From positions 1 to 59,603 of the forward strand of contig JAZTYX010000045.1 of assembly GCA_045637095.1 (NCBI GenBank): a stretch of 59,603 nucleotides of DNA, written 5' to 3'. The notes beneath the pieces are model-generated. The model ran no database searches and had not been told where the DNA came from. It was given only the letters and a program-made list of their open reading frames with translations. Of this stretch, positions 1 through 26,736 are shown piece by piece; the first letter of the stretch is position 1, and every line of letters starts with the position of its first letter. Both the position numbers and the translations under genes were made by a program. The stretch is from Clostridia bacterium. Its GTDB lineage: Bacteria; Bacillota; Clostridia; TANB77; CAG-465.

Positions 1-1
1 C

Positions 2-1006
2 AATATTGAACAAGGGTTTAATGCGTTCTATAAGCAAGAACCAGTTAAAATAGAAGTTGAATTTGATTCGGTATATTTTAAACTATACATAAAAACATCA
101 GAAAAAACGATGAATTTATCTGAAAGAAGTAATGGCTTAAGATGGTATTTAAATCTTTATGTGGATATATTATCACAGAATTATAAAAGCAAACATAGTG
201 TATTTTTATTAGATGAACCAGGCGTGTATTTACATGTTAATGCGCAAAAAAAAGTATTGGAATTATTTGCAGATTTAGCTGGGAAAGGAAATCAAGTTAT
301 ATATACAACACATTCTCCATATATGTTAAATACAGAAGATGTTATTAATATTAGAGCGGTACAAAAGGATAATGAGGAGATTACCAATATATACAATAAT
401 GTTTATGATTCGCAATTAGCAGGAGAATCAAAAATGGACACATTGACACCATTTTTGAAATCGTTAGGAATGAACTTTACCTTTAATTTTAAGGATAAAA
501 TGTTGAATAATAATATAATAACAGAAGGAATAACAGATTATTTCTATATAAAAGCAATGTTAAAGTATATGAATATAGATTCAAGGGAGGATATATCTAT
601 AATACCATCTGTAGGGGTTGATAATATCGATAAAATTGCTTCAATACTATTGGGGTGGGGGCTTAAATTTAAAGTTGTGGTAGATTATGACAAACAGGGA
701 AACGATGAATATAAGAGGTTACTAAGCAAATTAAATTTAATCCCAGATGAGCAAGTATGTTTTGTGAACTGTAAAACACAAATAGAAAAAATAGAAGAAA
801 AAGATTATGAAACAATCGAGTGTTTGGTAAGTAAAGAAGATTATGAATTATTGGAGAACCCATATATTCCAGATATAGAAGGCACCAAAATATTAGCGGC
901 GAAAGAATTTTATGATAAAGTTTCTAAAGGGAATATAGAATTGTCTGAAGATACGATAAGAAAATTCACTCAGTTGTTTGTAAAGTTAGGATTAATAGAA
1001 AAGTAG
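2..1006 (+). CDS. OLD-family ATP-dependent endonuclease, C-terminal ~334 aa (5' end outside window)
   Basis: The frame of ORF 110..1006 stays open back to base 2 (NIEQGFNAFYKQEP...), so the gene is cut by the window edge. ABC-like ATPase C-half motifs: SNGLRWYLNL, Walker B VFLLDEPGVYLH, H-loop IYTTHSPYM. Toprim motifs follow: ITEGITDYFYIK (Glu) and VVVDYDKQG (DxD). Confidence 0.7.
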   Translation, partial: NIEQGFNAFYKQEPVKIEVEFDSVYFKLYIKTSEKTMNLSERSNGLRWYLNLYVDILSQNYKSKHSVFLLDEPGVYLHVNAQKKVLELFADLAGKGNQVIYTTHSPYMLNTEDVINIRAVQKDNEEITNIYNNVYDSQLAGESKMDTLTPFLKSLGMNFTFNFKDKMLNNNIITEGITDYFYIKAMLKYMNIDSREDISIIPSVGVDNIDKIASILLGWGLKFKVVVDYDKQGNDEYKRLLSKLNLIPDEQVCFVNCKTQIEKIEEKDYETIECLVSKEDYELLENPYIPDIEGTKILAAKEFYDKVSKGNIELSEDTIRKFTQLFVKLGLIEK

Positions 1007-1108: not shown

Positions 1109-2044
1109 ATGAGCATTGGAAATAGAATAAAAGAATATAGAGAAAAGCTAGGTATGACACAAAAAGAAGTAGCAGAAATACTAGGTGTAGAAGCAAAAGC
1201 AGTGTCTAAATATGAATTGGGTTTAGCAGAACCTAATATAGAGTCACTAAGAAGACTAGCAGATACATTTAAGATAACTGTAGATGAGTTAATAGCAGAA
1301 GAAAAGAAACTAGACATATCTAATGTAAACGTATTAGAAGTACTAAGAGAACAAAAAGAAATGAAACTAAAAGGTAATTTGTATTACAGAACTCAAATAA
1401 TGTTTGCGTATAATACAAATCATATTGAGGGAAGTAGATTAACAGAAGACCAAACAAGGCATATTTATGAAACTAATACTATTTTGTTTGAAGCTAACAC
1501 TGTAGCAAGTGTAGATGATATATTAGAGACAGTAAATCACTTCAAACTAGTAGACTATATGTTAGATATTGCAGATGAGGTGTTAACGGAAGAAAGCATT
1601 AAAAGGTTCCATAAAATATTAAAAGAAGGAACTATGGATAGTGCTAAATCTTGGTTTAATGTTGGAGATTATAAAAGTCTAGCTAACTCTGCAGGAGAAT
1701 TAGCTACTACAGCACCTAAGAATGTAGAAAAGGACATGAAGAAATTATTAGAATGGTATAACTCGTTAGAAAAAGTAGAAGCTAAAGATATTATAGAGTT
1801 TCATGCTAAATTTGAAAAGATACATCCATTCCAAGATGGTAACGGAAGAATAGGAAGAATAATAATGTTTAAGGAATGCTTAAAGAATAATATAATACCA
1901 TTTATTATATTAGATAAAGATAAACTTTTCTATTATAGAGGATTAAAAGAATACCAATTTGGAAGAGAAAAAGGATATTTAATAGATACTTGTTTAAACG
2001 CACAAGATCAATATATTAAATTAATTGAACTTTGCTTAGGCTAA
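1109..2044 (+). CDS. Fic-family protein with N-terminal XRE-type HTH (class II-like, internal inhibitory motif)
   Basis: N-terminal HTH MTQKEVAEILGVEAKAVSKYELG. Canonical Fic motif HPFQDGNGRIGR. (S/T)xxxE(G/N) inhibitory-helix motif TNHIEG upstream of the core. RBS aaggaga 7 nt before the ATG. Confidence 0.85.
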   Translation: MSIGNRIKEYREKLGMTQKEVAEILGVEAKAVSKYELGLAEPNIESLRRLADTFKITVDELIAEEKKLDISNVNVLEVLREQKEMKLKGNLYYRTQIMFAYNTNHIEGSRLTEDQTRHIYETNTILFEANTVASVDDILETVNHFKLVDYMLDIADEVLTEESIKRFHKILKEGTMDSAKSWFNVGDYKSLANSAGELATTAPKNVEKDMKKLLEWYNSLEKVEAKDIIEFHAKFEKIHPFQDGNGRIGRIIMFKECLKNNIIPFIILDKDKLFYYRGLKEYQFGREKGYLIDTCLNAQDQYIKLIELCLG

Positions 2045-2179: not shown

Positions 2180-2980
2180 TTACTTTTTGGAAATAAGCAG
2201 AATTTCGCTTTCAGCATCAACAACATCTACCTGTGTGCAGCCATGAAGAAGCATAGACTCTTTCATCCAACCTAAGTTTAATGCTGTCTCACTCTCGTTG
2301 CAAGCATTGTTCTCGGGGTTGTATACGCCCTTTATAGGGGTGTAATTGCCGTTAGATACATCAATGTACCCGTTAGAGATAGAGAAGAGAATTACGCCTC
2401 CTGGCTTCACAGAACGGTATGCTTTTTCTGCAATGAAGTCCAGGTTGTTTCCAGCACAGTATGCAGCACGAAGGCTAATGAAAATATCATATTTACCTTC
2501 TTTAAGCTCTACCTCATCCATAGAAGCACAATGGAAGTCCATATGCGGGAAGAGCTCTTTACCTTTCTTGCAGGCATCTTCGGAAATCTCTACAACATCA
2601 AAAGACATTGTGTTAAAATACTTCTCGAAAATTATAGCAAGCTCAGAGCCGTTGTTTGCTCCAACAGCAAGAACCTTCTTTCCATCAAGAGGACCTAAGA
2701 GATGCACAATCTCATTTAAGATAATGCTGTTCCAGTTAGGGCAAACAGACCGGTAGTCTGTGGCATACTCGTATGCACCATACTTTTTGTTGAATGCATA
2801 AGACCTGGCATCTTTTGCAACTTCCAGAAACTGTTTATGGCTTTCAACAGGAATGCTTTTAAGCCAGTTTTCTACTGCTACATCCCAGTAAAGGGAAGAA
2901 TCAAAGGTAAGATTGAAACCATGCGCTTTAAAGTATTCTTCAATGAGCGATTTAATACTTGCTTCGTACCAGTTGTTCAT
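2180..2980 (-). CDS. Class I SAM-dependent methyltransferase (substrate unknown), non-host codon usage
   Basis: Motif I-like KKVLAVGANNGSE and post-I acidic residue (FDVVEIS). C/G-ending codons, unlike neighbouring host genes. Confidence 0.6.
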   Translation of the reverse strand: MNNWYEASIKSLIEEYFKAHGFNLTFDSSLYWDVAVENWLKSIPVESHKQFLEVAKDARSYAFNKKYGAYEYATDYRSVCPNWNSIILNEIVHLLGPLDGKKVLAVGANNGSELAIIFEKYFNTMSFDVVEISEDACKKGKELFPHMDFHCASMDEVELKEGKYDIFISLRAAYCAGNNLDFIAEKAYRSVKPGGVILFSISNGYIDVSNGNYTPIKGVYNPENNACNESETALNLGWMKESMLLHGCTQVDVVDAESEILLISKK

Positions 2981-3161: not shown

Positions 3162-3614
3162 ATGGATAAAATATTTAGCTTTATAGTAAACAGAAAAACA
3201 AATAAACTACTACTTTTATTAGGTAGCCCAGAAGATCCACAATTCCATAAATCTTTTTGGTATGTAGTAACAGGTGGTAAGGAAGATACAGATACAAATC
3301 TAGAACAAGCAGTAGTAAGAGAAATAAAAGAAGAAACAAATTTAGATGCGGTAGAAACACTTTATCTAAATTGGATATTTAAATACAAATCACTTGGAAA
3401 CATTTGCACAGAATATGTCTATGTTTCATTTATAGACGAGGATAGTAACATCGTATTAAATGAAGAAAGCATAGATTACAAATGGTGCGATGTAGATGAA
3501 TTTATAGAACTTATAGAATGGTCAGATGACAAAGAGTTCTTAAGAGAAGTTGTAAAAGCAGCATTAAACAAAGAAGTGTACATTAAAGAAGAAAAAGTAG
3601 ACCAATACTTTTAA
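3162..3614 (+). CDS. NUDIX hydrolase
   Basis: Nudix box GGKEDTDTNLEQAVVREIKEETNL (GX5EX7REUXEEXGU pattern). RBS aggagg 7 nt upstream. Host-like AT-rich codons. Confidence 0.8.
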   Translation: MDKIFSFIVNRKTNKLLLLLGSPEDPQFHKSFWYVVTGGKEDTDTNLEQAVVREIKEETNLDAVETLYLNWIFKYKSLGNICTEYVYVSFIDEDSNIVLNEESIDYKWCDVDEFIELIEWSDDKEFLREVVKAALNKEVYIKEEKVDQYF

Positions 3615-3649
3615 TATAACAAAAATATAAATATAACAAAGTAAAAGAA

Positions 3650-3677
3650 GAAGGAGCACACAGTAGTGTACTCCTTC
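3650..3677. terminator. Hairpin gaaggagcacac/gtgtactccttc between convergent NUDIX and operon end
   Basis: 12-bp stem with one mismatch, loop agta, T-rich tract downstream on the + strand. Confidence 0.5.
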
Positions 3678-3725
3678 TATTTATTTTGCTTGTTTTTGGT
3701 ATATTGGTATTTGCAAAGCATAGCG

Positions 3726-4448
3726 TTACTTCTTAATCAAGAAATAAAACTGCGTATGCTTCACATCGTTAACCGGAGCAGCCGAAACATCGATGAGTTC
3801 ATAGCTGTATCCGAGGTTTGTAAGAATGGTTGCAATCTCGTTGATAGAGAAAAGCCTAATCTTGTGGTAATCCATATATTCGAAGTCTTCGCCGGTAAGC
3901 TTGTTATGAACCTCGAACTTAGGCTCCCATACAGAGTAAACTTCATCCACTCTGTTGGACACCCAGGATTCCCTTACGATAATACTATCGTTTTCATAGG
4001 TCTTATCCTTGACATAACCATCAATCCACTTGTCTATACAGTATCTTACATCGAAGATAACGTAGTCATTCGCATGCTCCAAGAGGTTCTTGATAGAACG
4101 CTCAAGGTCTTCAAGGGTAAGATTATACTGCAGTGCACTTCCAAGACAAGAGACAACGCTGAACTTTCTGTCAAGTGCAAAGTTTCTCATATCTCCGTGC
4201 ATGAAGTTGATGTGCGGATTTTTCGCTCTGGCGATATCAAGCATGCCTTTAGAGTAGTCCAAACCAAAGATGTTGTAGCTTTCAGGTGAGAAAAAGTGAA
4301 TGTGTTCACCAGTTCCACAGCCAACATCAAGGAGAGACTTATCTTTAGATTTGTCTACCAGAAGCTTTAAGAGTTCGTATTCCCGATCATAGGGAATGCC
4401 GGCGTTTATAAGGTCGTAGATTTCAGCAAGCTGTTCATACATAATCAT
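3726..4448 (-). CDS. Class I SAM-dependent methyltransferase resembling TylM1/DesVI-type (sugar/amine N-methyl) enzymes
   Basis: LLDVGCGTGEH motif I. GDMRNFALDRKFSVVSCLGSALQY closely parallels the TylM1-family block GDMRDF.LGRKFSAV. Last gene of the 8229->3726 operon, with its ATG 1 nt after the upstream stop. Confidence 0.7.
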   Translation of the reverse strand: MIMYEQLAEIYDLINAGIPYDREYELLKLLVDKSKDKSLLDVGCGTGEHIHFFSPESYNIFGLDYSKGMLDIARAKNPHINFMHGDMRNFALDRKFSVVSCLGSALQYNLTLEDLERSIKNLLEHANDYVIFDVRYCIDKWIDGYVKDKTYENDSIIVRESWVSNRVDEVYSVWEPKFEVHNKLTGEDFEYMDYHKIRLFSINEIATILTNLGYSYELIDVSAAPVNDVKHTQFYFLIKK

Positions 4449-4449
4449 C

Positions 4450-5022
4450 TTACTTTTCCTCCTTTATTTTGTTAATGCATTCTAAAAGAGTTTCATCGCT
4501 GTTAAAATACATCACAGTTACATCGGATTCGAGTTCGGCGTTAAGATGAGAGCTTACAACTCTTTCATCAATAAGGACGTAAACCGTCTTATGACTCCAA
4601 AGCCTATGAACCTTGGTATGGGCAATCTCGGTGAATACACCGGCAGAGAGACCAAGGCAAAGCATAACATCAAAGTTCTTGCTTGGCTGAGTGTTCATCT
4701 CTGCCCAACCACCGTTAATTTCTACTGCTTCATCGCAGAAAGAAAGATTACCAGTAATTGTAGGTGTATTTCCGTACTTGGGATAAAATCCCTTGATCTT
4801 GGTAGTTCTATTAGGAATAGAGTGAAGTGCTTTGGCAACATCCAAAGGAACTCCGATATCCGGAAGTACACCGATAGCTTCAAAGTGAGTGTTTAAGAAT
4901 CGTGCTATGCTATTGATATACTTAGGATAATCAGCTTCGGTGATGTGACCAAACGTGTAAAGGTTCTTAATGCCATTGTTGCTAGGCCCGGCAATAAAGG
5001 CCGTAAGTTTAGTGTTGTTCAT
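4450..5022 (-). CDS. SLOG/LOG-like Rossmann protein (TIGR00725-like); start trimmed to MNNTKL
   Basis: RBS aaggaga 6 nt upstream of the ATG at 5022, so the longer ORF to 5076 is unlikely. AFIAGPS N-terminal strand and GLSAGVFTEIA resemble the LOG PGGxGTxxE region. Overlaps the upstream gene by 14 nt. Confidence 0.45.
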   Translation of the reverse strand: MNNTKLTAFIAGPSNNGIKNLYTFGHITEADYPKYINSIARFLNTHFEAIGVLPDIGVPLDVAKALHSIPNRTTKIKGFYPKYGNTPTITGNLSFCDEAVEINGGWAEMNTQPSKNFDVMLCLGLSAGVFTEIAHTKVHRLWSHKTVYVLIDERVVSSHLNAELESDVTVMYFNSDETLLECINKIKEEK

Positions 5023-6094
5023 AACGCATCTCCTTGTAACTATTATATGCCCCAGGAAACGAGTTTGCAAACACAATTTCGCCGTGGAGTTTCATTATGG
5101 CTTTACCATATTCATAAAGAATAGGGTTGATGTGGAGAGATTCGTTCCACTCGCCATACTTAAGGTAGCAAGAAGACAGATACTTCTTGTTGAATTTGCT
5201 GTAGGTAATCTCCTTGCAGTGCCCGTGAACAATTACATCTACGTTCTTAAACTCGCTAAAGAGTTCATAAACGAGAGGAAATTCAGAGGTAGGGCACTTG
5301 GTACCGCACCAGTGTACAACACGGTTATCTACCTTAACGACAAGGACAATGTCCTCTTTGTTAAGAGCACCGACCTGCGCGCCAGTAGCAGTAACCAAGT
5401 AGCCCTCGGGGATGCGCTTAGCAAGAAAACCAGCAACATTGGAAAGATACCCATCATCACAAAGTTTCTTGCCGTTTTCAGCAAACTCGTTAAAGTATGC
5501 TTCAAGGATACTTTCAGGAATAGGTCCATCGCAGACGTTCTCATACTTAATCTTGGTGTAGCAGTGGAGAATAGAATCTACGATTTTTTCGTAAGGAGCC
5601 ATGGTGGTCTTTACGAGATTTCCTTCATCGTCATAGATATACTCAGGGAAAATAACCTGAACATTTTTCTGACTCTGAAGGATACGAAGACTTTCCTGCA
5701 GCGCGAAGTTGTTCCAAAGGGAAGCATCCATAGCCGGTGCAATAATGCACTTAACACCCTTGCCAAGAGCGTTATGGATAACAGACAAAGGATAATTATC
5801 TGCAATGCCACGAGCAATCTTGTTCATGGTGTTAAAGGTGCACGGTGCAACTACCACGATGTCCTCTTCGGGAACAATGAGGTTGTTGGACTTAGAGAAA
5901 TCACATTTAATGTGATACTTGAGACTCAAAGCCTCATAGTTGGGCAGTAAATCCCGACCCATTTCAGTGGGCAGAATCCAAATGTTAGGATTATATGAAC
6001 TGAGCTGCTCAAGAAACAAGTCGAAATACTTAGTCTTGTGTGCTCCGGTAGGAACAAGGTAAAGAACTTTTCCGTCCAAAAAGTTGTTTTTCAT
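5009..6094 (-). CDS. Fusion protein: HFCD-type flavoprotein (CoaC/EpiD-like) N-domain + class II aldolase/adducin C-domain
   Basis: N-half: VVVAPCTFNTMNKIARGIADNYPLSVI...IIAPAMDASLWNN, like the CoaC/EpiD block APATANTLAK.A.GIADNLL...APAMN..MW. C-half: SNVAGFLAKRIPEGYLVTATGAQVGALNKEDIVLV, PTSEFPLVYELF and VIVHGHC (HxH), like class II aldolase signatures. Confidence 0.6.
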   Translation of the reverse strand: MKNNFLDGKVLYLVPTGAHKTKYFDLFLEQLSSYNPNIWILPTEMGRDLLPNYEALSLKYHIKCDFSKSNNLIVPEEDIVVVAPCTFNTMNKIARGIADNYPLSVIHNALGKGVKCIIAPAMDASLWNNFALQESLRILQSQKNVQVIFPEYIYDDEGNLVKTTMAPYEKIVDSILHCYTKIKYENVCDGPIPESILEAYFNEFAENGKKLCDDGYLSNVAGFLAKRIPEGYLVTATGAQVGALNKEDIVLVVKVDNRVVHWCGTKCPTSEFPLVYELFSEFKNVDVIVHGHCKEITYSKFNKKYLSSCYLKYGEWNESLHINPILYEYGKAIMKLHGEIVFANSFPGAYNSYKEMRYEQH

Positions 6095-6120
6095 AATAAT
6101 CCTCCTTCTCTTAATAGAGA

Positions 6121-6585
6121 TTAGAAGTAAAATTGCCTATTGATTTCGTATGCGATCGCGGCTGTTACAACCGGAAGGGTCAGGAAATCTACCGAGGTAT
6201 TCATAGGCAGTTTTACCAGGTCGTCAAGCAGAGACTGCTTGTAGGTGGTTAAGCCAGATGATTCATTGCCAAAGACGATGACAATATTGCCGTTAGAGCA
6301 ATCAAGCTCATAGAAAGACTTGGTTGCAGCGCCAGAGGTACCAACAAGGATATTGCCTTCAGCACGAAGTGTGTTAACAGCTTCTTCGAAGGTTTCAAAA
6401 TGGGTAACCTTGGGGTAAGACGTGATGTTCCAAGAACGAATCTTGTCTACGATCTTCTTGTTATCGAAGGGAATGGAATTTCCCGCAGTGTAGATCTCAC
6501 AGTCAAGAGCCGATGCAATCTGGATTACGTGTGCGATGTCATAAGGCGACCGAATGGCGTCATAGAGTAACTTAATCTTTTTCAT
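6121..6585 (-). CDS. SPOUT (SpoU/TrmH/TrmL-like) RNA 2'-O-methyltransferase-like protein
   Basis: 154 aa. IVIVFGNESSGL and LPMNTSVDFLTLPVVTAAIAYEI match the SpoU knot motifs. RBS aaggagat upstream. Confidence 0.65.
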   Translation of the reverse strand: MKKIKLLYDAIRSPYDIAHVIQIASALDCEIYTAGNSIPFDNKKIVDKIRSWNITSYPKVTHFETFEEAVNTLRAEGNILVGTSGAATKSFYELDCSNGNIVIVFGNESSGLTTYKQSLLDDLVKLPMNTSVDFLTLPVVTAAIAYEINRQFYF

Positions 6586-6599
6586 AATGCTATATCTCC

Positions 6600-7523
6600 T
6601 TAAATTTTTTTATTAATGAAATAAATTGCCGTTTTGCCGTTTGCTGTTGCGTTGGATACCTGCTTAGGAAGAAGCTGGTTAATGTCGCCGATAGCATATA
6701 CATTAGGAATGCTAGATTCCATGGTAAGCGGATCGACTACAATTCTACCAAGAGAGTCGGTAGCAATCTCAAGACCGTTAAGATACTTAAGATTAGGCTT
6801 CATTCCAATAGAACAAAACAGATAATCGCAAGGGATAGTGAGCGACTGGTTACCAACAACCATATCAACAGATTCGAGTTTGTCCTCGCCGTTAATTCGG
6901 TATACAGTAGCGCTCGTGATAGCCTTAACGCGAGTTTTAGCAAGTCTTTCAAGATACTTGCGTGTTGCGTTAAGAGTAGAATCGCGTTCTATCAAAGTAA
7001 CATTTGCGTTAGTGTTGTTCGCAAGGAAAATTGCGGTGGTTGCGCCTGAATTTCTTCCACCTAAAACTACAACATTCTTGCCGGTGTAATCCAAATCTTC
7101 CTTACATACGAAGTTAAAGATATACTTGCCGAAGAACCTGTCATAGTTTTCAATGTAGAGCTTTTTAGGAGTAGTTCCAGATGCAATTACAAGAAATCTT
7201 GCAATATACGTAGAACCATCATCGCAAGAGATAACAAAGTTATCTTCATGTTTCTTAACAGCTTCTACCTTTTTAGGGGTGATTCTGATTCCTTTGGAAT
7301 CAAGATGTTTCTTGAAGCTTTCAACAAGCTCCGTGCCAGTGGTGTTATATGCACCCAGATAACCGTCGACGGTATAGTGCTGGTTAATAGAATACTCAGC
7401 ATACCATCCGGACTTGTTGTTCTCAAAGAGAACGAAGTTTAACCGGTTGTTTTCTGCATCAATTGCAGCTGCCATACCAGCAGGACCGGCACCGATGATT
7501 GCGACATCAATGAAGTTTGTCAT
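6600..7523 (-). CDS. Thioredoxin-reductase-like FAD/NAD(P)-dependent oxidoreductase lacking the redox CxxC
   Basis: VAIIGAGPAGMAAA (FAD GxGxxG), VVVLGGRNSGATTA (NAD(P)H), C-terminal YAIGD. At the TrxB CATC position the sequence is NFVCKEDLDY (single Cys). Confidence 0.75.
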   Translation of the reverse strand: MTNFIDVAIIGAGPAGMAAAIDAENNRLNFVLFENNKSGWYAEYSINQHYTVDGYLGAYNTTGTELVESFKKHLDSKGIRITPKKVEAVKKHEDNFVISCDDGSTYIARFLVIASGTTPKKLYIENYDRFFGKYIFNFVCKEDLDYTGKNVVVLGGRNSGATTAIFLANNTNANVTLIERDSTLNATRKYLERLAKTRVKAITSATVYRINGEDKLESVDMVVGNQSLTIPCDYLFCSIGMKPNLKYLNGLEIATDSLGRIVVDPLTMESSIPNVYAIGDINQLLPKQVSNATANGKTAIYFINKKI

Positions 7524-7524
7524 A

Positions 7525-8229
7525 TCACTTACCTCCTATAAGGATAAACGGGTCTGAAGTGATTGTAAGATGGATAGGATCTTCAGAAAGATACTGAATA
7601 ATCTTCTGCTCATCTGCATCGGAGTAATCCTCAATATACGGATAACTCTTAACCACATTCAGAACGCTTTGGATGTTAGGAAACGTTCTTTTAATAGGGA
7701 GTGGGTAAATAGCGATGGTGGCAAAGCCAGCATCTTTAAGAAGATTAGCGTAGAAATCTGCGTTCCTGGAACGAATGAGCCGTCCGGGAAATAATTTAGA
7801 AATCTCAACCAGTCCCTTATATTCACCATACTCTCTAAGGAAGAACTTCCCTGTGGGTGTGAGTACTCTGTAGAGTTCGTCTGCAGAGAAACGTGTAACA
7901 TTTTTTGCTGTAACCAAATCAAAAAAGCCGTCCTCGAAGGGGATGTGGTAGTTGTCGGCAAGGCGAATATCTATGCCTTCTAAACCTTTACCTGCATTTA
8001 CCATTTCAATTGAATTGTCTATTCCATACAACCGTACGGGAACTAAGGAGTTCGCTTTAATTAACTTGAGTACAAAACCGTTGCCAGTGCCAATGTCTAA
8101 AACCTTGCTATCTGCCGTAATGTTTTTAACAATATGCTCCAAAAAAACATCGTTAACATTTAACGAGTTTTTAGAAGCGTTATTATTCACATCGTCACGT
8201 AAATGCACAACATGTTCGGTGTAAAACAT
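7525..8229 (-). CDS. Class I SAM-dependent methyltransferase (Methyltransf_11-like), first gene of the operon
   Basis: VLDIGTGNGFV motif I, YGIDNS post-I, FDLVTAKNV. Non-host codon usage. Confidence 0.65.
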   Translation of the reverse strand: MFYTEHVVHLRDDVNNNASKNSLNVNDVFLEHIVKNITADSKVLDIGTGNGFVLKLIKANSLVPVRLYGIDNSIEMVNAGKGLEGIDIRLADNYHIPFEDGFFDLVTAKNVTRFSADELYRVLTPTGKFFLREYGEYKGLVEISKLFPGRLIRSRNADFYANLLKDAGFATIAIYPLPIKRTFPNIQSVLNVVKSYPYIEDYSDADEQKIIQYLSEDPIHLTITSDPFILIGGK

Positions 8230-8394
8230 AAATGTAGCCTCCTCTCATATTAATAATCGGAAACATTATATCACTTTTAACGCTTTATGTCAACTTTAAT
8301 AGCGACTAATACATATAAATAATAAGCATTAAAACGTTTGTTGCTATGATTAATTTTTTATGGTATAAATATAATCATAAAGAGGGTAAAAATT

Positions 8395-9021: not shown

Positions 9022-9894
9022 ATGTTTAAATTTGAATTAGACGTTCTTTTGTTTTTGCAAAATATAAGAACAGACATATTAAATGTGCTATTGCAAGGAA
9101 TAACAATGCTAGGCGAAGAAGTAGTTATGGTTTTAGTTATAGCAATATTATATTTCTGCATAGATAAGAAATTTGCACAAAAGCTATTTTTTGTAACAGT
9201 TTCATCAGCGGGTATAAATGGAATAATTAAGAATTTAGTAAGATTTCCAAGACCGTTTGCAACAGGCAAGATAATTTGCGTAAGAGAAGATACAGCGACT
9301 GGGTATTCATTTCCAAGTGGTCATACACAAACATTTGCTAGTATGAGCACAACGATTGCCAAAAAATTAAAAAAGCCGTTAGTTACATTTCTAGTTGGTA
9401 TATTAATAGTTTTAGTAGCATTTTCTAGAATGTATCTTGGAGCTCATTATCCAAGTGATGTAGTGGTAGGTGCAGTGTTAGGTGTAGTGCTAGCTTTAAT
9501 AGGGACAAGCCTTTTTGATAAAGTTGAAAACAAAAAAGTGTTATACTTAGCAACAATAATATTATTAACACCATTTGCTGTACTGTTTTTAATAAATCCA
9601 GATGAACATTTTGAAGATTTTTATAAAATATTTGGAATGTTAATAGGCTTTTTACTTGCAGTTATGTTTGAAGAAAAATATGCGCCTCTAGAATATAACG
9701 TCTCTTGGTGGAAAAAAGTATTAAGAGTAGTGCTTGGTGTTGGATTTGCGCTAGCAGTTAAAGAGGGCGTCAAATTACTTAATATATTTGATTCACTTAG
9801 AATGAACCTTGTGTTTGATGCATTTCGTTATGGATTATTAATATTTGTGGCATTAGGAATATGTCCGTGGATATTTAAGAAGTTAAAGATATAA
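9022..9894 (+). CDS. PAP2-family membrane phosphatase (undecaprenyl-diphosphatase-like)
   Basis: Three PAP2 motifs: KNLVRFPRP, PSGH, SRMYLGAHYPSD. Multiple TM segments. Confidence 0.8.
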   Translation: MFKFELDVLLFLQNIRTDILNVLLQGITMLGEEVVMVLVIAILYFCIDKKFAQKLFFVTVSSAGINGIIKNLVRFPRPFATGKIICVREDTATGYSFPSGHTQTFASMSTTIAKKLKKPLVTFLVGILIVLVAFSRMYLGAHYPSDVVVGAVLGVVLALIGTSLFDKVENKKVLYLATIILLTPFAVLFLINPDEHFEDFYKIFGMLIGFLLAVMFEEKYAPLEYNVSWWKKVLRVVLGVGFALAVKEGVKLLNIFDSLRMNLVFDAFRYGLLIFVALGICPWIFKKLKI

Positions 9895-9906
9895 TAGGAG
9901 GGTAAT

Positions 9907-11088
9907 ATGAATAAATCGGGTAATATAGCAACAATAATAGGATCTCTTTTTGGAATAGCAACAGGGGTATGTATGTTTTATATATTTTCTAACATGGGAA
10001 TATTAGAACATAGCATATATTTCTTTGCAATGCCAATATGTTTTTGCGTTGCAGGCATAATACCAATAATACGAATAATTATGACAAACAGCGTAAAAAA
10101 CAAAGATGTTGTTGTAGAAGAATTAGGAGAGAATATAAATTTTGAAGGAATATATACAGAACTTCAAGATAAACATGCTTATGAATTAGACAAAATAAGA
10201 AAAAGAGTATTTCCAGCAATAATACTTGTAACTATTTCTGTTATAGGATTAATTTTAATGGGCTTTTGGGTGGATAAAGTGGATAAAAACCCAATGCTTA
10301 TTTATGGAAAAGAGAATTTGTTAATAATTATACCAATAGTTATAGTAACACCATTCTTTGCAGCAGTATTTATGCTTTCATCAAGAAAAGGAGCTTATAC
10401 AAGAAAATATAAAGATTTATTAGTAGCAGATTTAGTGCAAAGGATAAATGGCTCTCTAAAATATGAGAGATATAACGGAGAAATTAATCACAGATTAATA
10501 GGGAAATATAGAGATTCAAATTTTGATAAATTAAAGTTCAATAGATGGGATGCAGAAGACGCTATACATGGAAATATTACAGACAACTTGCATTTGGAAC
10601 TTGCAGAACTTAGCATAGATCATGAGAGTGGTTCTAGAAAAAACAGGACAACGATAAATATATTTAAAGGTTTATTTGCTCGTGTGGAAAGAAAAGAGAA
10701 CTTTAATACTATAATTAAAGTATTAAATGATAAAAACAAAGCATCTGTAAGTAATCAAGACAATTTAAGCGAAGTGAAAATGGATAGCACGGAATTTGAA
10801 AATATGTTTAATGTGTACTCAAATAATCCTGTTGTAGCGATGAGGGTGCTAACAAGTGATATAATGGAAAAGATTATAGATTTTGAGAAAAGATTAAATA
10901 TACACTATGAACTATATATTTCAGGCGCAGAGATATATATGCGTTTGTTTACTAAAGAGTTATTTGAACCATCAATATTTAATAAAGATAAAGAAAAGAA
11001 GAATATGAGAATGTATTACGAAATATTAAATCTTGTGATAGATATGTCTAAAGAATTAGATAAGATTATATCTGAAGTCGAAGTTTAG
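9907..11088 (+). CDS. DUF3137-like membrane protein, paralogue 1
   Basis: N-terminal TM helices, then blocks shared with ORFs 11151, 15886 and 17097: IFKGLFARV, MDSTEFENMFNVYSNN..VAMRVLTSDIMEKI, IYMRLFTKELFEPSIF. Confidence 0.55.
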   Translation: MNKSGNIATIIGSLFGIATGVCMFYIFSNMGILEHSIYFFAMPICFCVAGIIPIIRIIMTNSVKNKDVVVEELGENINFEGIYTELQDKHAYELDKIRKRVFPAIILVTISVIGLILMGFWVDKVDKNPMLIYGKENLLIIIPIVIVTPFFAAVFMLSSRKGAYTRKYKDLLVADLVQRINGSLKYERYNGEINHRLIGKYRDSNFDKLKFNRWDAEDAIHGNITDNLHLELAELSIDHESGSRKNRTTINIFKGLFARVERKENFNTIIKVLNDKNKASVSNQDNLSEVKMDSTEFENMFNVYSNNPVVAMRVLTSDIMEKIIDFEKRLNIHYELYISGAEIYMRLFTKELFEPSIFNKDKEKKNMRMYYEILNLVIDMSKELDKIISEVEV

Positions 11089-11150
11089 TTATAGACAAAA
11101 AACAACAAAATGTGATAGTATCTTTTTAGATATATAAAGGAGATAAACAT

Positions 11151-12194
11151 ATGAAAAAAGAAGATAATGAATTTGAATTAATATACACAGATATTCGCAG
11201 AAAATATCAAGATAAATTTGATAAATGGAATAAGGATATTAAATTGTCAAAAATATTATACGCCGCGTTGGTAGCTTTTCTTTTAGTAGTTGTGTTAATA
11301 TTATTTGTAACACCATTTAAAACTTTATTAGCTACAAATAAAGGTACTTTTTATGCAACAATAATTGCAATTGTAGTGGTTGCGGTTGTGATAGTGGCAT
11401 ATGCATCTTCGTTAAGAAGTAGATATAAAAAAGAATATAAAGCTACTGTTGTAACGGATTTGGTAAATAGAACAAATAGCAATTTTGCGTTTAGTGAGAA
11501 ATGTGCAGATAATGGTGCGGGACTTAAGAATGCATATGAAGATGCGGGATTAGACAGACTTTCTCTAATGGGATTAGGTCAAATACTTTCTGGTGTTAGA
11601 AGAAGTATGGAAGTACAAACTCATAACTATATCGAAGGTACTACACAAACAAACATTATGACAAGAATGTCTGAAGTTGCTGTATATGATGTGAAGAAAA
11701 TAACAAGAGTAGAAAACGGAAGCGTTTCACAAAGCACAGAAAGAAAAAATATATTTGATGGTTTCTTTGCACATGTAAGTATTCCTACTGCTGTGCCAGT
11801 AGATTTTAGTGTGTTTACAAATGATCCAACTCCAAGAGATTACTATAATGACGATGTTAGAACTAACAAAGGCGGACAAAGAGTGTCTATGGGAAATTTA
11901 GAGAGTTGGAGAGGTTTATGTGTGTATTCTGAACAGCCTGAAAAACTTGAAACTTATGCTACTGAAGAAATGGGAAGAATAATTAGAGACATGGATAAAA
12001 AATCTCTTATAAAAACAGATATTGCACTAAAAGGAAACAACATATATATAAGATTACATCAACATTCATTCATTAATCCAGATTTAAAAGATGAAAATAA
12101 GAATAAAGCTAAATTAAAAGCATGCTATGATATGTTAAACTTTATAGAAGAATTTGCAATAGAAGTAAATGAGACAAATAAGGCTAAAAAATAA
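11151..12194 (+). CDS. DUF3137-like membrane protein, paralogue 2 (most divergent)
   Basis: Same architecture (2 TM plus C-domain). Shares YKKEYKATVVTDLV, IFDGFFAHV and IYIRLHQHSFINPDL with the other three. Confidence 0.45.
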   Translation: MKKEDNEFELIYTDIRRKYQDKFDKWNKDIKLSKILYAALVAFLLVVVLILFVTPFKTLLATNKGTFYATIIAIVVVAVVIVAYASSLRSRYKKEYKATVVTDLVNRTNSNFAFSEKCADNGAGLKNAYEDAGLDRLSLMGLGQILSGVRRSMEVQTHNYIEGTTQTNIMTRMSEVAVYDVKKITRVENGSVSQSTERKNIFDGFFAHVSIPTAVPVDFSVFTNDPTPRDYYNDDVRTNKGGQRVSMGNLESWRGLCVYSEQPEKLETYATEEMGRIIRDMDKKSLIKTDIALKGNNIYIRLHQHSFINPDLKDENKNKAKLKACYDMLNFIEEFAIEVNETNKAKK

Positions 12195-19929: not shown

Positions 19930-20005
19930 TGGAGCTGAAGGTCAGAATTGAACTGACGACCTGCTGATTACAAGTCAGCTGCTCTACCAGCTGAGCTACT
20001 CCAGC
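19930..20005 (-). tRNA. tRNA-Thr (anticodon UGU), CCA encoded
   Basis: The reverse complement folds as a cloverleaf: acceptor GCTGGAG/CTTCAGC, anticodon stem GCTGA/TCAGC, loop CTTGTAA, T-loop GGTCGTCAGTTCAATTCTGAC. Confidence 0.9.
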
Positions 20006-20011
20006 TTACAG

Positions 20012-20086
20012 TGGTGACCCGTAGGAGAGTCGAACTCCTCACTCCGCCGTGAAAGGGCGATGTCTTAACCGATTGACCAACGGGCC
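20012..20086 (-). tRNA. tRNA-Glu (anticodon UUC), CCA encoded
   Basis: Reverse complement GGCCCGTTGGTCAATCGGTTAAGAC...CTTTCAC...GGGTCACCA. Typical bacterial tRNA-Glu sequence and cloverleaf. Confidence 0.9.
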
Positions 20087-20089
20087 ATG

Positions 20090-20165
20090 TGGTGAGCTAT
20101 CCGCGATTCGAACGCGGGACAACTTGATTAAAAGTCAAGTGCTCTGCCAACTGAGCTAATAGCCC
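20090..20165 (-). tRNA. tRNA-Lys (anticodon UUU), CCA encoded
   Basis: Reverse complement GGGCTATTAGCTCAGTTGGCAGAGC, anticodon stem-loop CTTGA-CTTTTAA-TCAAG, T-arm CGCGTTCGAATCGCG. Confidence 0.9.
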
Positions 20166-26660: not shown

Positions 26661-26736
26661 CGGGGTGTAGCTCAGTTGGTAGAGCGCGTGGTTTGGGACC
26701 ATGAGGTCGCAGGTTCGGGTCCTGTCACTCCGACCA
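26661..26736 (+). tRNA. tRNA-Pro (anticodon UGG), CCA encoded
   Basis: CGGGGTG acceptor paired with CACTCCG. Anticodon arm CGTGG-TTTGGGA-CCATG. T-arm GCAGGTTCGGGTCCTGT. Confidence 0.9.

What the first reader, a model, noticed from the sequence alone, without database searches (positions are those of the whole stretch)
3726..8229. Foreign six-gene operon with an enzyme combination I cannot assign to any known pathway
Six minus-strand genes are packed with spacings of 1, 14 and 26 nt, a 14-nt overlap, then 1 nt. GGAGG-type RBSs are embedded in the preceding genes, so this is one translationally coupled unit. Codon usage favours AAG, AAC, GAC, ATC, CTC, TTC and CAC, whereas host genes use AAA, AAT, GAT, ATA and TTA. 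The unit lies next to an OLD nuclease and a Fic gene, an accessory or defence-island-like context. The order is: class-I MTase, TrxR-like flavoenzyme without CxxC, SPOUT RNA-MTase-like, HFCD flavoprotein/class-II aldolase fusion, SLOG/LOG-like protein, TylM1-like MTase. There are partial echoes of known clusters. Dithiolopyrrolone clusters contain an HFCD decarboxylase and a TrxR-like oxidase, and one producer uses an RNA methyltransferase for self-resistance. Linaridin clusters combine HFCD with an N-methyltransferase. But I see no NRPS, precursor-peptide ORF or transporter here. Alternatively, SLOG, SPOUT and the flanking NUDIX fit the nucleotide-centred modification/conflict systems described by comparative genomics. 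Either way the function is open.
Basis: partly seen in the sequence, partly recalled or inferred. Interest (0 to 1): 0.78.

Follow-up and report, generated by a model that had tools for sequence, protein, structure and literature searches.

The report
Conserved unassigned nucleotide-tailoring gene cluster
The six-gene operon is real, was acquired horizontally, and is built around a three-gene core (methyltransferase, SPOUT methyltransferase, flavoprotein-aldolase fusion) that recurs in gut Clostridia, CPR bacteria and DPANN archaea; it matches no characterised pathway and most likely tailors a nucleotide or its ribose-phosphate.

Summary
**Observation: confirmed.**
- There are six minus-strand genes with spacings of 1, 14, 26, -14 and 1 nt.
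- Each has its own Shine-Dalgarno site. One perfect sigma-70 promoter and one terminator bracket the set.
- GC3 is 0.40-0.52, against 0.16-0.24 in neighbouring genes.
- All six domain calls hold, including the missing CxxC, the SLOG fold and the TylM1 likeness.

**Synteny: conserved.**
- In 53 non-redundant loci, the flavoprotein/class-II-aldolase fusion sits beside the SPOUT gene in 50 and the class-I MTase in 41.
- Variable additions are NUDIX (24), SLOG (20), TrxR-like (13), a radical-SAM enzyme (12) and four non-orthologous extra MTases.
- The full six-gene order recurs at 46-54% identity. The first five genes plus NUDIX recur in DPANN archaea.
- The functional unit therefore also includes NUDIX (3162-3614) and a 266-aa MTase (2180-2980).

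**Known systems: none fits.**
- Pfam, NCBIfam, PADLOC, PHROGs and literature searches name no pathway.
- The dithiolopyrrolone and linaridin echoes fail. The catalytic HFCD His and the CxxC are absent, and there is no NRPS or conserved small ORF.

**Best reading (confidence about 0.4):** a SAM-intensive pathway that tailors a free nucleotide or ribose-phosphate.

**Main rival (about 0.3):** RNA nucleoside hypermodification with co-encoded house-cleaning enzymes.

The product is unknown.

The parts
8265..8293 (-). Operon promoter: TTGACA, 17-nt spacer, TG-extended TATAAT. It is followed by GAGAGGAGG and the G1 ATG at 8229.
   Evidence: 12 of 12 matches, TG present; sequence. No Rfam riboswitch or leader.
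7525..8229 (-). G1, class-I SAM methyltransferase (234 aa) with a family-specific C-terminal domain. Core gene.
   Evidence: Pfam Methyltransf_11/25/31. All NCBIfam hits are far below cut-offs. Adjacent to the fusion in 41 of 53 loci, and in 18 of 19 fully flanked loci.
6600..7523 (-). G2, low-Mr thioredoxin-reductase-like FAD/NAD(P)H flavoenzyme (307 aa) without the CxxC. Accessory gene, inferred to be the electron donor.
   Evidence: Pfam Pyr_redox_2 1.6e-41. TIGR01292 scores 190 bits against a cut-off of 343. The alignment to 7jyp shows CAAC aligned to FVCK. Present in 13 of 53 loci, always between G1 and G3.
6121..6585 (-). G3, minimal SPOUT (SpoU/TrmH-class) methyltransferase (154 aa). 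Core gene and the most conserved protein of the cluster.
   Evidence: Pfam SpoU_methylase 2.1e-14. Nearest solved structures are AviRb and RlmB. Motif-1 Asn and Arg are replaced by Asp and Gln across the family, while motifs 2 and 3 are kept. Present in 50 of 53 loci. Homologues are at least 51% identical.
5009..6094 (-). G4, fusion of an HFCD-type FMN flavoprotein domain (about residues 1-180) and a class-II zinc aldolase-like domain (about residues 200-361). Signature core gene.
   Evidence: Pfam PF02441 plus PF00596. Alignment A1 has invariant APCTFNT..K.A.GIADNY, PSSE, HGHC and KLHGE. PDB profile hits are EpiD, PPC-DC, FucA and YgbL. AF2 pLDDT is 93 and Foldseek gives the same two folds. 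Only 35 representatives at E<1e-30 among 1.84 billion.
4450..5022 (-). G5, highly divergent SLOG-superfamily protein (190 aa). It overlaps the G4 stop by 14 nt. Accessory gene, inferred to be a nucleotide N-glycosidase or nucleotide binder.
   Evidence: No Pfam, NCBIfam or PDB sequence hit. The AF2 model has pLDDT 88. Foldseek hits are Moco carrier protein, YpsA, DprA, LOG and PpnN, with TM up to 0.68/0.76. Viral LOG and YpsA-like hits also appear. Present in 20 of 53 loci.
3726..4448 (-). G6, TylM1/DesVI-family N,N-dimethyltransferase-like class-I MTase (240 aa). Accessory gene of the window's clade.
   Evidence: PDB 6m83/3pfg at E = 3e-24 over residues 6-219; DesVI 6e-20; CalS10 8.5e-15. Present in 5 of 53 loci: L047, L048, L049, L072 and the window.
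3649..3678 (.). G+C-rich 13-bp hairpin between the convergent G6 and NUDIX genes. It terminates the operon on the minus strand and probably serves both genes.
   Evidence: sequence.
3162..3614 (+). NUDIX hydrolase (150 aa), of the small NTP-pyrophosphohydrolase (NudB/MutT/Ap4A) type. Part of the system although its composition is host-like (GC3 0.20).
   Evidence: Pfam NUDIX 4e-14. NudB model scores 48 bits against a cut-off of 103. PDB hits are NudB and Ap4A hydrolases. Adjacent to the cluster in 24 of 53 loci across Clostridia, Berkelbacteria, Omnitrophota and DPANN.
2180..2980 (-). MT266, a separate class-I MTase (266 aa, GC3 0.42) with its own promoter-like site (3070-3042) and terminator (2146-2118). 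It is the extra tailoring MTase of the Clostridia forms.
   Evidence: Pfam Methyltransf_25/11. The nearest solved structure is phosphoethanolamine N-methyltransferase, E = 3e-7. It co-occurs in 12 of 53 loci at 54-69% identity. Promoter and terminator.

Best explanation
The locus encodes a horizontally mobile, SAM-intensive pathway. I think it tailors a free ribonucleotide, or the phosphorylated ribose part of one, into a multiply methylated product that stays inside the cell.

**Shown**
- One constitutive-looking promoter drives six translationally coupled genes.
- The invariant core in all lineages is a class-I MTase (G1), a minimal SPOUT MTase (G3) and an FMN-flavoprotein/zinc-aldolase fusion (G4).
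- Each lineage adds a different, non-orthologous class-I MTase. Many add a NUDIX NTP-pyrophosphohydrolase, a SLOG protein, a CxxC-less TrxR-like flavoenzyme or a radical-SAM enzyme.

**Inferred steps**
1. G3 uses the SPOUT SAM pocket to methylate a ribose hydroxyl or a ring nitrogen of the nucleotide. It has lost the Asn and Arg that SpoU enzymes use on RNA.
2. The FMN domain of G4 lacks the Cys-decarboxylase His. It oxidises or reduces a position next to a carbonyl.
3. The aldolase domain of G4 keeps its three His and one Glu zinc site and its phosphate-binding loop. It performs enediolate chemistry (aldol or retro-aldol, epimerisation, dehydration or decarboxylation) on the phosphorylated sugar.
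4. G2 recycles the flavin with NAD(P)H.
5. G1 and the variable MTases add further methyl groups. Here these are the TylM1-like N,N-dimethyltransferase G6 and the phosphoethanolamine-MTase-like MT266.
6. NUDIX converts the triphosphate or diphosphate form to the monophosphate.
7. SLOG cleaves the N-glycosidic bond or binds the product.

The identity and role of the product (cofactor, signal, antimetabolite or co-substrate) are unknown.
For: **Synteny**
- Searches show the arrangement across many genomes.

**Small-molecule signatures**
- The aldolase domain keeps PSSE, HGH and LHGE and the T-x-T/S-G phosphate loop of sugar-phosphate enzymes.
- G6 is a full-length relative of NDP-aminosugar N,N-dimethyltransferases.
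- The nearest solved structure to MT266 is a phospho-base N-methyltransferase.
- NUDIX is of the small NTP-pyrophosphohydrolase type.
- G5 has the LOG/PpnN/Moco-carrier fold, which binds or cleaves nucleotides.
- G4 and G5 overlap, which suggests consecutive steps or a complex.

**Departure from RNA enzymes**
- G3 lacks the motif-1 Asn and Arg used in RNA 2'-O-methylation, and has no RNA-binding extension.
- The window's G3, G1, G6 and MT266 are acidic, with pI 5.0-5.6.

**Diversification pattern**
- The extra MTases share only the Rossmann core. This is the pattern of lineage-specific tailoring seen in biosynthetic clusters.

**Mobility**
- The cluster is the cargo of a mobilisable element (integrase, relaxase, RepA_N, TnpV) in a Clostridiaceae MAG.
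Against: - No substrate or product has been identified.
- No enzyme makes the amine that an N,N-dimethyltransferase would need.
- There is no kinase, glycosyl- or phosphoribosyl-transferase, transporter, regulator or immunity gene.
- All SpoU/TrmH-class enzymes characterised so far act on RNA (my knowledge).
- pI values across the families are near neutral (medians about 6.8), so the charge argument is weak.
- Retention in very small CPR and DPANN genomes fits a housekeeping RNA modification at least as well.
- NUDIX and SLOG could equally be house-cleaning enzymes.
- The phosphate loop of the aldolase domain was judged from sequence pattern only.
Confidence: 0.4

Rival explanations
1. RNA nucleoside hypermodification. 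G3 (SpoU-class, the size of TrmL) and G1 methylate a specific tRNA or rRNA nucleotide. G4 builds or trims a side chain on the base, with FMN as carbon or electron relay, much as flavin or radical-SAM enzymes act in the wybutosine or xm5U pathways. The variable MTases and the radical-SAM enzyme give lineage-specific derivatives. NUDIX and SLOG destroy the free modified nucleotides released by RNA turnover.
For: - G3 matches only RNA 2'-O-methyltransferases: RlmB, TrmH, TrmL and AviRb.
- G3 is the most conserved protein of the cluster.
- The cluster is kept in reduced CPR and DPANN genomes with near-native GC.
- The promoter looks constitutive, with no regulator, transporter or immunity gene.
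- SAM-heavy pathways with lineage-variable steps are typical of tRNA hypermodification (my knowledge: TYW1-4/Taw).
- A house-cleaning role would explain why NUDIX and SLOG are optional.
Against: - G3 lacks the catalytic motif-1 Arg and the Asn.
- No class-II aldolase or HFCD enzyme is known to act on RNA (my knowledge).
- G6 and MT266 resemble small-molecule N-methyltransferases.
- Distribution is patchy, and the cluster is carried on a mobilisable element and is compositionally foreign in Clostridia.
- It has no consistent linkage to translation genes. MnmA adjacency occurs in one lineage only.
Confidence: 0.3
2. Conflict or defence system. The cluster makes a toxic or chain-terminating nucleotide analogue, or depletes or alters a nucleotide pool or signal, to block phage or competitors. 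The adjacent defence genes (OLD, Fic, TIR) reflect a defence island.
For: - The flank is a variable defence-gene site: OLD and HTH-Fic (PADLOC PDC-S04, 1e-104) here, ThsB-TIR and Metallophos in a sister strain.
- A Fic gene lies within 3 kb in three distant lineages.
- It is the cargo of a mobilisable element.
- The CPR form carries a radical-SAM enzyme that aligns end to end with the prokaryotic viperin model, though below cut-off.
- NUDIX weakly matches PDC-S07.
Against: - No PADLOC model hits G2-G5.
- There is no sensor, effector nuclease, TM effector or regulator.
- The promoter is constitutive.
- No homologue was found in IMG/VR.
- In CPR and DPANN the cluster sits among housekeeping genes with native GC.
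- The radical-SAM enzyme scores higher against peptide and cofactor maturases than against viperin.
Confidence: 0.13
3. Ribosome-protection resistance module. G3 and the class-I MTases methylate rRNA, as AviRa/AviRb or TsnR do, to resist a ribosome-targeting antibiotic.
For: - AviRb is the best solved-structure match of G3.
- The MT225 of the CPR form weakly matches Erm/KsgA.
- It rides a small mobilisable element in a gut Clostridiaceae MAG.
Against: - This does not explain the invariant FMN/aldolase fusion, NUDIX, SLOG or the TrxR-like gene.
- G3 lacks the RNA-binding N-terminal domain of AviRb/RlmB and the catalytic Arg.
- It is present in free-living groundwater and lake CPR and DPANN.
Confidence: 0.05
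4. Peptide or thiol natural-product cluster (linaridin or lanthipeptide-like RiPP, or dithiolopyrrolone-like). It would use the HFCD domain as a cysteine decarboxylase and the TrxR-like enzyme as a dithiol oxidase.
For: - EpiD is the best PDB match of the G4 N-domain.
- The radical-SAM enzyme of the CPR form resembles peptide maturases such as SkfB and the mycofactocin maturase.
- G6 and MT225 weakly match a daptide MTase.
Against: - The catalytic His column is not conserved. An invariant IPEED replaces the H-x-x-L-x-x-W-A-D segment.
- There is no CxxC.
- There is no NRPS, protease or transporter.
- No small ORF is conserved between lineages.
Confidence: 0.02

Closest known systems
HFCD flavoproteins (EpiD/MrsD/CypD peptidyl-Cys decarboxylases, CoaC/AtHAL3a PPC decarboxylase, UbiX)
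   Same: The G4 N-domain has the same fold and the FMN-binding motifs: the N-terminal TGA..K, the APxxxNT..K.A.G.xDN motif, and a PAMxxxxW-like motif.
   Different: - The catalytic His is absent and replaced by an invariant PEED.
- An invariant Cys sits inside the PASANT-like motif.
- The domain is fused to a class-II aldolase domain, which none of the solved HFCD proteins carries.
Class-II (zinc) aldolase/epimerase/dehydratase family (FucA, AraD, MtnB, YgbL/OtnC, DrdA)
   Same: The G4 C-domain keeps the Glu plus three His metal site with FucA-like spacing (E271, H290, H292, H337) and the phosphate loop. Foldseek hits are FucA, YgbL, AraD and DrdA.
   Different: The domain is shorter (about 160 aa) and matches only the first half of the Pfam model well. 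It is fused to a flavoprotein. No partner kinase or isomerase of the known sugar pathways is present.
SpoU/TrmH-class SPOUT RNA 2'-O-methyltransferases (TrmL, TrmH, RlmB, AviRb)
   Same: G3 covers the whole SpoU catalytic domain and keeps SAM-pocket motifs 2 and 3. It has the minimal size of TrmL.
   Different: The motif-1 Asn, Gly and Arg are replaced by Asp, Ala and Gln throughout the family. There is no RNA-binding extension. The gene is strictly linked to the G4 fusion.
Aminonucleoside-type nucleotide tailoring (puromycin/A201A early steps: ATP oxidation, Nudix Pur7, N-methyltransferases), from my own knowledge
   Same: The logic is similar: an NTP is redox-modified on the ribose, a Nudix enzyme removes pyrophosphate, and SAM-dependent MTases decorate it.
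   Different: None of the pur enzymes is shown to be homologous to these proteins. There is no aminotransferase, peptide-bond-forming enzyme, resistance gene or exporter. This is an analogy only.
LOG / PpnN / MilB-type nucleotide N-glycosidases and Moco carrier proteins (SLOG superfamily)
   Same: G5 has the SLOG Rossmannoid fold. A conserved Gly-rich loop followed by an invariant Glu (GLSAGVFTE) lies where LOG has PGGxGTxxE.
   Different: There is no detectable sequence similarity. The LOG motif is not literally kept. Catalysis versus binding is undecided.
Wybutosine/wyosine tRNA pathway (Trm5 or TrmD, TYW1 radical-SAM plus FMN domain, TYW2-4), from my own knowledge
   Same: It has a comparable parts list: a SPOUT or class-I MTase first step, an FMN-dependent C-C bond-forming step, several SAM-dependent tailoring steps, and lineage-variable end products.
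   Different: No TYW or Taw orthologue was detected, apart from one weak Taw2 hit at 1.4e-4 to MT225. The radical-SAM partner is absent from the window's form.

Membership tests
Dithiolopyrrolone (holomycin-type) cluster | NRPS plus acyl-CoA dehydrogenase/thioesterase genes | tested here: not met
   No such ORF or domain lies in or beside the cluster, nor in any of the 53 related loci.
Dithiolopyrrolone (holomycin-type) cluster | TrxR-like dithiol oxidase with a redox-active CxxC | tested here: not met
   In G2 the TrxR CAAC aligns to FVCK, leaving a single out-of-register Cys.
Linaridin / lanthipeptide-type RiPP cluster | Precursor peptide gene | tested here: not met
   No small ORF (18-90 aa) is conserved between lineages around the cluster.
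Linaridin / lanthipeptide-type RiPP cluster | HFCD Cys decarboxylase with the catalytic His (EpiD His67) | tested here: not met
   The His column is variable in the 23-sequence alignment. An invariant IPEED replaces the segment.
HFCD flavoprotein superfamily (PF02441) | Flavoprotein fold with FMN-binding motifs | tested here: met
   Pfam 6e-14; profile against EpiD 7e-17; Foldseek against PPC-DC and EpiD, TM (target) 0.77-0.81. Flavin binding itself was not tested.
Class-II aldolase family (PF00596) | Glu plus three His zinc site and a phosphate-binding loop | tested here: met
   E271, H290, H292 and H337 are invariant and T235/G238 nearly so. Pfam 6e-9. Foldseek hits are FucA, YgbL and AraD. 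Metal binding was not tested.
SpoU/TrmH RNA 2'-O-methyltransferases | SPOUT knot with SAM-binding motifs 2 and 3 | tested here: met
   VFG(N/T)ExSGL and LPMxxSVDFLTLPV..AIAYE are conserved. Pfam covers positions 3-138 of 142.
SpoU/TrmH RNA 2'-O-methyltransferases | Motif-1 Asn and catalytic Arg (N-x-G-x3-R) | tested here: not met
   The motif aligns as D-I-A-x3-Q against AviRb N-I-G-x3-R. The replacement holds across 30 family members.
SpoU/TrmH RNA 2'-O-methyltransferases | RNA substrate | not testable with these tools
   Needs a methylation assay or RNA mass spectrometry.
Low-Mr thioredoxin reductase | FAD and NAD(P)H Rossmann motifs plus the CxxC disulfide | tested here: not met
   The Rossmann motifs are present, but the CxxC is absent. 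TIGR01292 scores 190 bits against a cut-off of 343.
LOG family (cytokinin riboside 5'-monophosphate phosphoribohydrolase) | PGGxGTxxE and GGGxxGLM motifs with sequence-level membership | tested here: inconclusive
   There is no Pfam, NCBIfam or PDB sequence hit. The fold matches the SLOG superfamily. GLSAGVFTE with an invariant Glu lies at the equivalent place.
TylM1/DesVI NDP-aminosugar N,N-dimethyltransferases | Full-length homology to the family | tested here: met
   G6 residues 6-219 align to TylM1 17-234 at E = 3e-24. DesVI scores 6e-20. Substrate was not tested.
Known anti-phage defence systems (PADLOC-DB v2) | Match of the core proteins to a system model | tested here: not met
   G3, G4 and G5 have no hits. 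G1, G6 and MT266 give only generic MTase-domain hits to mad2. G2 gives marginal hits.
Prokaryotic viperin (applies to the radical-SAM partner of the CPR form only) | Score above the NF038283 cut-off | tested here: not met
   91 and 82 bits against a cut-off of 180. Other radical-SAM families score higher.

The most novel reading that the evidence does not exclude
The MTase-SPOUT-flavoprotein/aldolase triad is a previously unrecognised pathway native to the ultra-small CPR and DPANN symbionts. It has been passed on mobile elements into gut Clostridia. It makes a new methylated nucleotide-derived metabolite, such as a cofactor, a signal, or a co-substrate for the recurrently adjacent Fic enzymes. 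On this reading the FMN-zinc fusion enzyme catalyses a reaction type not yet described, and the SPOUT enzyme is the first of its class to act on a small molecule.
Probability: 0.3. Interest if true: 0.85.

Novelty: new variant of a known kind. Interest (0 to 1): 0.68.

Why it matters
If the reading holds, this is a compact pathway of three to eight genes with no characterised member.

- **Distribution.** It is shared by three very different groups: gut Clostridia, CPR bacteria and DPANN archaea. It is mobile between them.
- **Reduced genomes.** The ultra-small lineages have very few accessory pathways. A conserved SAM-hungry cluster there points to something important for their lifestyle.
- **Signature enzyme.** The HFCD flavoprotein lacks its decarboxylase His and is fused to an intact zinc aldolase. 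It has only about 35 representatives (clusters at 50% identity) among 1.84 billion. It is a good candidate for new chemistry.
- **SPOUT enzyme.** A SpoU-class enzyme that has lost its RNA catalytic residues would widen the known scope of that fold.
- **Practical use.** The cluster is small enough to express and assay directly.

Tried and rejected
**Naming the pathway from libraries**
- Pfam, NCBIfam, PADLOC and PHROGs gave only superfamily-level hits, all below the curated cut-offs for specific functions.

**Literature**
- Three searches failed technically.
- Four that ran found nothing relevant.

**Phage origin**
- No relative of the fusion was found in IMG/VR.

**RiPP reading**
- No small ORF is conserved between lineages and the HFCD His is absent.

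**Regulatory leader**
- Rfam found only four tRNAs in the window.

**Sequence-level placement of G5**
- Nothing in PDB matched, even with a profile at E<=10. Only fold comparison worked.

**One orthologous extra MTase across lineages**
- Rejected. hhalign finds only the Rossmann core shared between the extra MTases.

**Link to tRNA thiolation genes**
- MnmA, NifU and ThiF lie beside the cluster in L115/L116 only.

**Recoded stop codons in L047**
- The split genes are frameshifts, plus one CAA-to-TAA change. This indicates assembly or decay, not recoding.

**Pathways considered from memory and dropped**
- Arsenosugar, pterin/Moco, quinone (UbiX/UbiE), CoA-trimming and DHAP-shunt readings were considered.
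- Each explains at most two of the genes, and no diagnostic partner gene is conserved nearby.

Full report
**1. The observation**

- G1: 7525-8229.
- G2: 6600-7523.
- G3: 6121-6585.
- G4: 5009-6094.
- G5: 4450-5022. The ORF extends to a TTG at 5076, but the ATG at 5022 has the AAGGAG site.
- G6: 3726-4448.

Gaps between the genes are 1, 14, 26, -14 and 1 nt. Every start has a GGAGG or AAGGAG site 6-9 nt upstream.

A perfect extended -10 promoter (TTGACA-17-TGnTATAAT) lies at 8293-8265. A strong hairpin terminator lies at 3678-3649. Together they bracket the set. Rfam finds no leader RNA.

GC is 0.40-0.44 and GC3 is 0.40-0.52. Eight neighbouring genes have GC3 of 0.16-0.24. The codon claim is right for AAG, AAC, ATC and CTC. 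It is not right for GAC, and TTC and CAC are mixed.

**2. The proteins**

- **G1** is a generic class-I SAM MTase with a family-specific C-terminal half.
- **G2** is a low-Mr TrxR-like flavoenzyme. In the alignment to TrxR 7jyp, the CAAC aligns to FVCK, so the redox disulfide is absent.
- **G3** covers the whole SpoU catalytic domain, and its nearest solved relatives are AviRb and RlmB. The motif-1 Asn, Gly and Arg of SpoU enzymes read Asp, Ala and Gln, and this holds across 30 family members. The SAM-pocket motifs are kept.
- **G4** is a fusion.
  - The N-domain is an HFCD flavoprotein whose best PDB match is EpiD (7e-17). It keeps the flavin motifs, but an invariant IPEED stands where the catalytic His segment should be.
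  - The C-domain is a class-II aldolase with an invariant E271, H290, H292 and H337 metal site and the phosphate loop.
  - The AF2 model (pLDDT 93) matches PPC-DC and EpiD in one half. It matches FucA, YgbL, AraD and DrdA in the other.
- **G5** has no sequence-level relative in Pfam, NCBIfam or PDB. Its AF2 model (pLDDT 88) is a SLOG-superfamily fold resembling Moco carrier protein, YpsA, DprA, LOG and PpnN.
- **G6** is a full-length relative of the TylM1/DesVI NDP-aminosugar N,N-dimethyltransferases, at E = 3e-24.

**3. Conservation**

The fusion protein has 68 word-indexed homologues, and all of them are fusions.

Scans of GTDB genomes and JGI metagenomes, plus contig look-ups, gave 53 loci that are non-redundant at 95%. 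The gene counts beside the fusion are:

| Gene | Loci (of 53) |
|---|---|
| SPOUT (G3) | 50 |
| G1 | 41 |
| NUDIX | 24 |
| SLOG (G5) | 20 |
| G2 | 13 |
| MT266 | 12 |
| 303-aa radical-SAM enzyme | 12 |
| Partner MTase MT225 | 11 |
| Further MTase MT280 | 8 |
| G6 | 5 |

Many contigs are short, so these counts are lower bounds. In 19 fully flanked loci, SPOUT is present in 19 and G1 in 18.

Four layouts recur.
- **A, DPANN and Omnitrophota:** MT280 | G1-G2-SPOUT-FUS-SLOG-NUDIX.
- **A', the window plus L047, L048, L049 and L114:** G1-G2-SPOUT-FUS-SLOG-G6, with NUDIX and MT266 alongside. The fusion is 46-54% identical to the window's.
- **B, CPR:** (SLOG)-rSAM-MT225 | G1-SPOUT-FUS.
- **C, gut Clostridia:** MT266 | NUDIX-G1-SPOUT-FUS.

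The extra MTases share only the Rossmann core.

The family is rare. Only 35 representatives reach E<1e-30 among 1.84 billion.

**4. Mobility and setting**

- In a Clostridiaceae MAG, NUDIX-MT266-G1-SPOUT-FUS (with a DUF6076 gene) is the only cargo of a small element. That element carries an integrase, relaxase, RepA_N and TnpV.
- In gut Clostridia loci the cluster is 4-10 GC points above its flanks. In CPR and DPANN loci it is near native. This suggests the latter groups are the older hosts.
- The window is 99% identical to two Clostridia MAGs over the fusion.
- A sister strain has ThsB-TIR and Metallophos genes where the window has Fic and OLD. The MT266-side flank is therefore a variable defence-gene site.

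**5. What it is not**

- There is no NRPS, protease or transporter, and no small ORF is conserved between lineages.
- The HFCD His and the CxxC are absent. The dithiolopyrrolone and linaridin echoes are superficial.
- No PADLOC model covers the core.
- There is no phage homologue of the fusion and no informative PHROG hit.
- No paper mentions the combination.

**6. Most likely mechanism**

Every accessory protein points to nucleotides or phosphorylated sugars.
- NUDIX is of the small NTP-pyrophosphohydrolase type.
- G5 belongs to the SLOG fold, which binds or cleaves nucleotides.
- G6 belongs to a family of MTases that act on nucleotide-linked amines.
- The aldolase domain has an intact phosphate site.
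- The radical-SAM partner also resembles enzymes acting on nucleotides or nucleotide sugars, such as viperin, MoaA, BlsE and DesII.

I therefore favour a SAM-intensive tailoring pathway on a free ribonucleotide or its ribose-phosphate. The inferred steps are:
1. SPOUT and class-I MTases methylate the nucleotide.
2. The G4 fusion couples FMN redox chemistry to zinc-enediolate chemistry on the phosphorylated sugar.
3. G2 recycles the flavin.
4. NUDIX and SLOG convert triphosphate to monophosphate, and then to base plus sugar phosphate, or bind the product.

Only the gene content, its conservation and the retained active-site residues are shown. Every chemical step is inferred. Confidence is about 0.4.

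**7. Main rival**

The main rival is an RNA nucleoside hypermodification, with NUDIX and SLOG acting as house-cleaning enzymes (about 0.3).
- **For:** the SpoU ancestry of G3, its high conservation, the constitutive promoter, and retention in reduced genomes.
- **Against:** the lost catalytic Arg, the relatives of G4, G6 and MT266 that act on small molecules, and the mobile, patchy distribution.

A defence role (about 0.13) and rRNA-methylation resistance (about 0.05) explain fewer of the genes.

**8. Novelty and verdict**

All the parts belong to known enzyme superfamilies, and operon-encoded SAM-dependent tailoring pathways are a known kind. The core combination, the fusion enzyme and the SPOUT variant have no characterised counterpart.

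I rate it a new variant of a known kind, with interest 0.68. I give about 0.3 probability that it is a wholly new nucleotide-derived metabolite pathway of CPR and DPANN origin.

Noticed in passing
window 1109-2044 (+); L016/L043 about 10904-11791; L088 8363-9289: An HTH-Fic gene (PADLOC PDC-S04, E = 1e-104) lies beside the cluster in the window. Fic homologues at 31-36% identity lie within 3 kb of the cluster in two very distant lineages. That makes 3 of 19 fully flanked loci, which may be more than coincidence.
   Followed up: partly
L045 8271-9759 (sister strain of the window): In a near-identical strain, the OLD and Fic genes are replaced by Metallophos and ThsB-like TIR genes next to MT266. 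This marks a variable defence-gene site. In the same contig G2 and G6 are each split in two, by frameshifts or assembly errors.
   Followed up: no
window 1-1006 (+): The OLD-family nuclease gene (AAA_21/AAA_15 C-terminal part plus OLD TOPRIM) is open from the first base of the window. It is cut by the window edge, not truncated in the genome.
   Followed up: yes
protein P0111: A 607-aa protein joins a complete CoaBC (Flavoprotein plus DFP) to a C-terminal class-II aldolase domain. This is an independent HFCD-aldolase fusion that hints at a link to phosphopantothenate-type chemistry. Its genomic context could not be looked up.
   Followed up: partly
L003, L042, L043, L064, L068 (CPR loci), upstream and divergent from G1: The CPR forms carry a 303-aa radical-SAM enzyme without a SPASM domain. 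It aligns end to end with the prokaryotic viperin model but scores below cut-off. It comes with an Erm/KsgA-like MTase, and the pair is almost mutually exclusive with NUDIX.
   Followed up: partly
window 3162-3614 (+): NUDIX has host-like composition (GC3 0.20), although it lies between two high-GC parts of the system (MT266 at 0.42, the operon at 0.40-0.52). It may have been replaced or have drifted towards host composition separately.
   Followed up: no
window 9022-12194 (+): Just beyond the operon promoter lie a 200-aa predicted membrane or secreted protein, a PAP2 phosphatase and two tandem paralogous genes, at least one of them DUF3137. All have host-like GC.
   Followed up: no
window 19930-20165 (-) and 26661-26736 (+): There is a tRNA-Thr(TGT)/Glu(TTC)/Lys(TTT) cluster and a single tRNA-Pro(TGG). 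These are the only Rfam hits in the window.
   Followed up: no
L025 and L029 about 5270-5494; L030 2-427 and 2930-3334: Some loci carry a second SPOUT copy or a fragment of one near the cluster.
   Followed up: no
L010, L055, L087, L115, L116 between NUDIX and G1: A 307-312-aa protein with no Pfam hit is inserted on the opposite strand in one Clostridia sub-lineage. In L115/L116 a MacB-type ABC transporter and a two-component system follow the fusion gene.
   Followed up: partly
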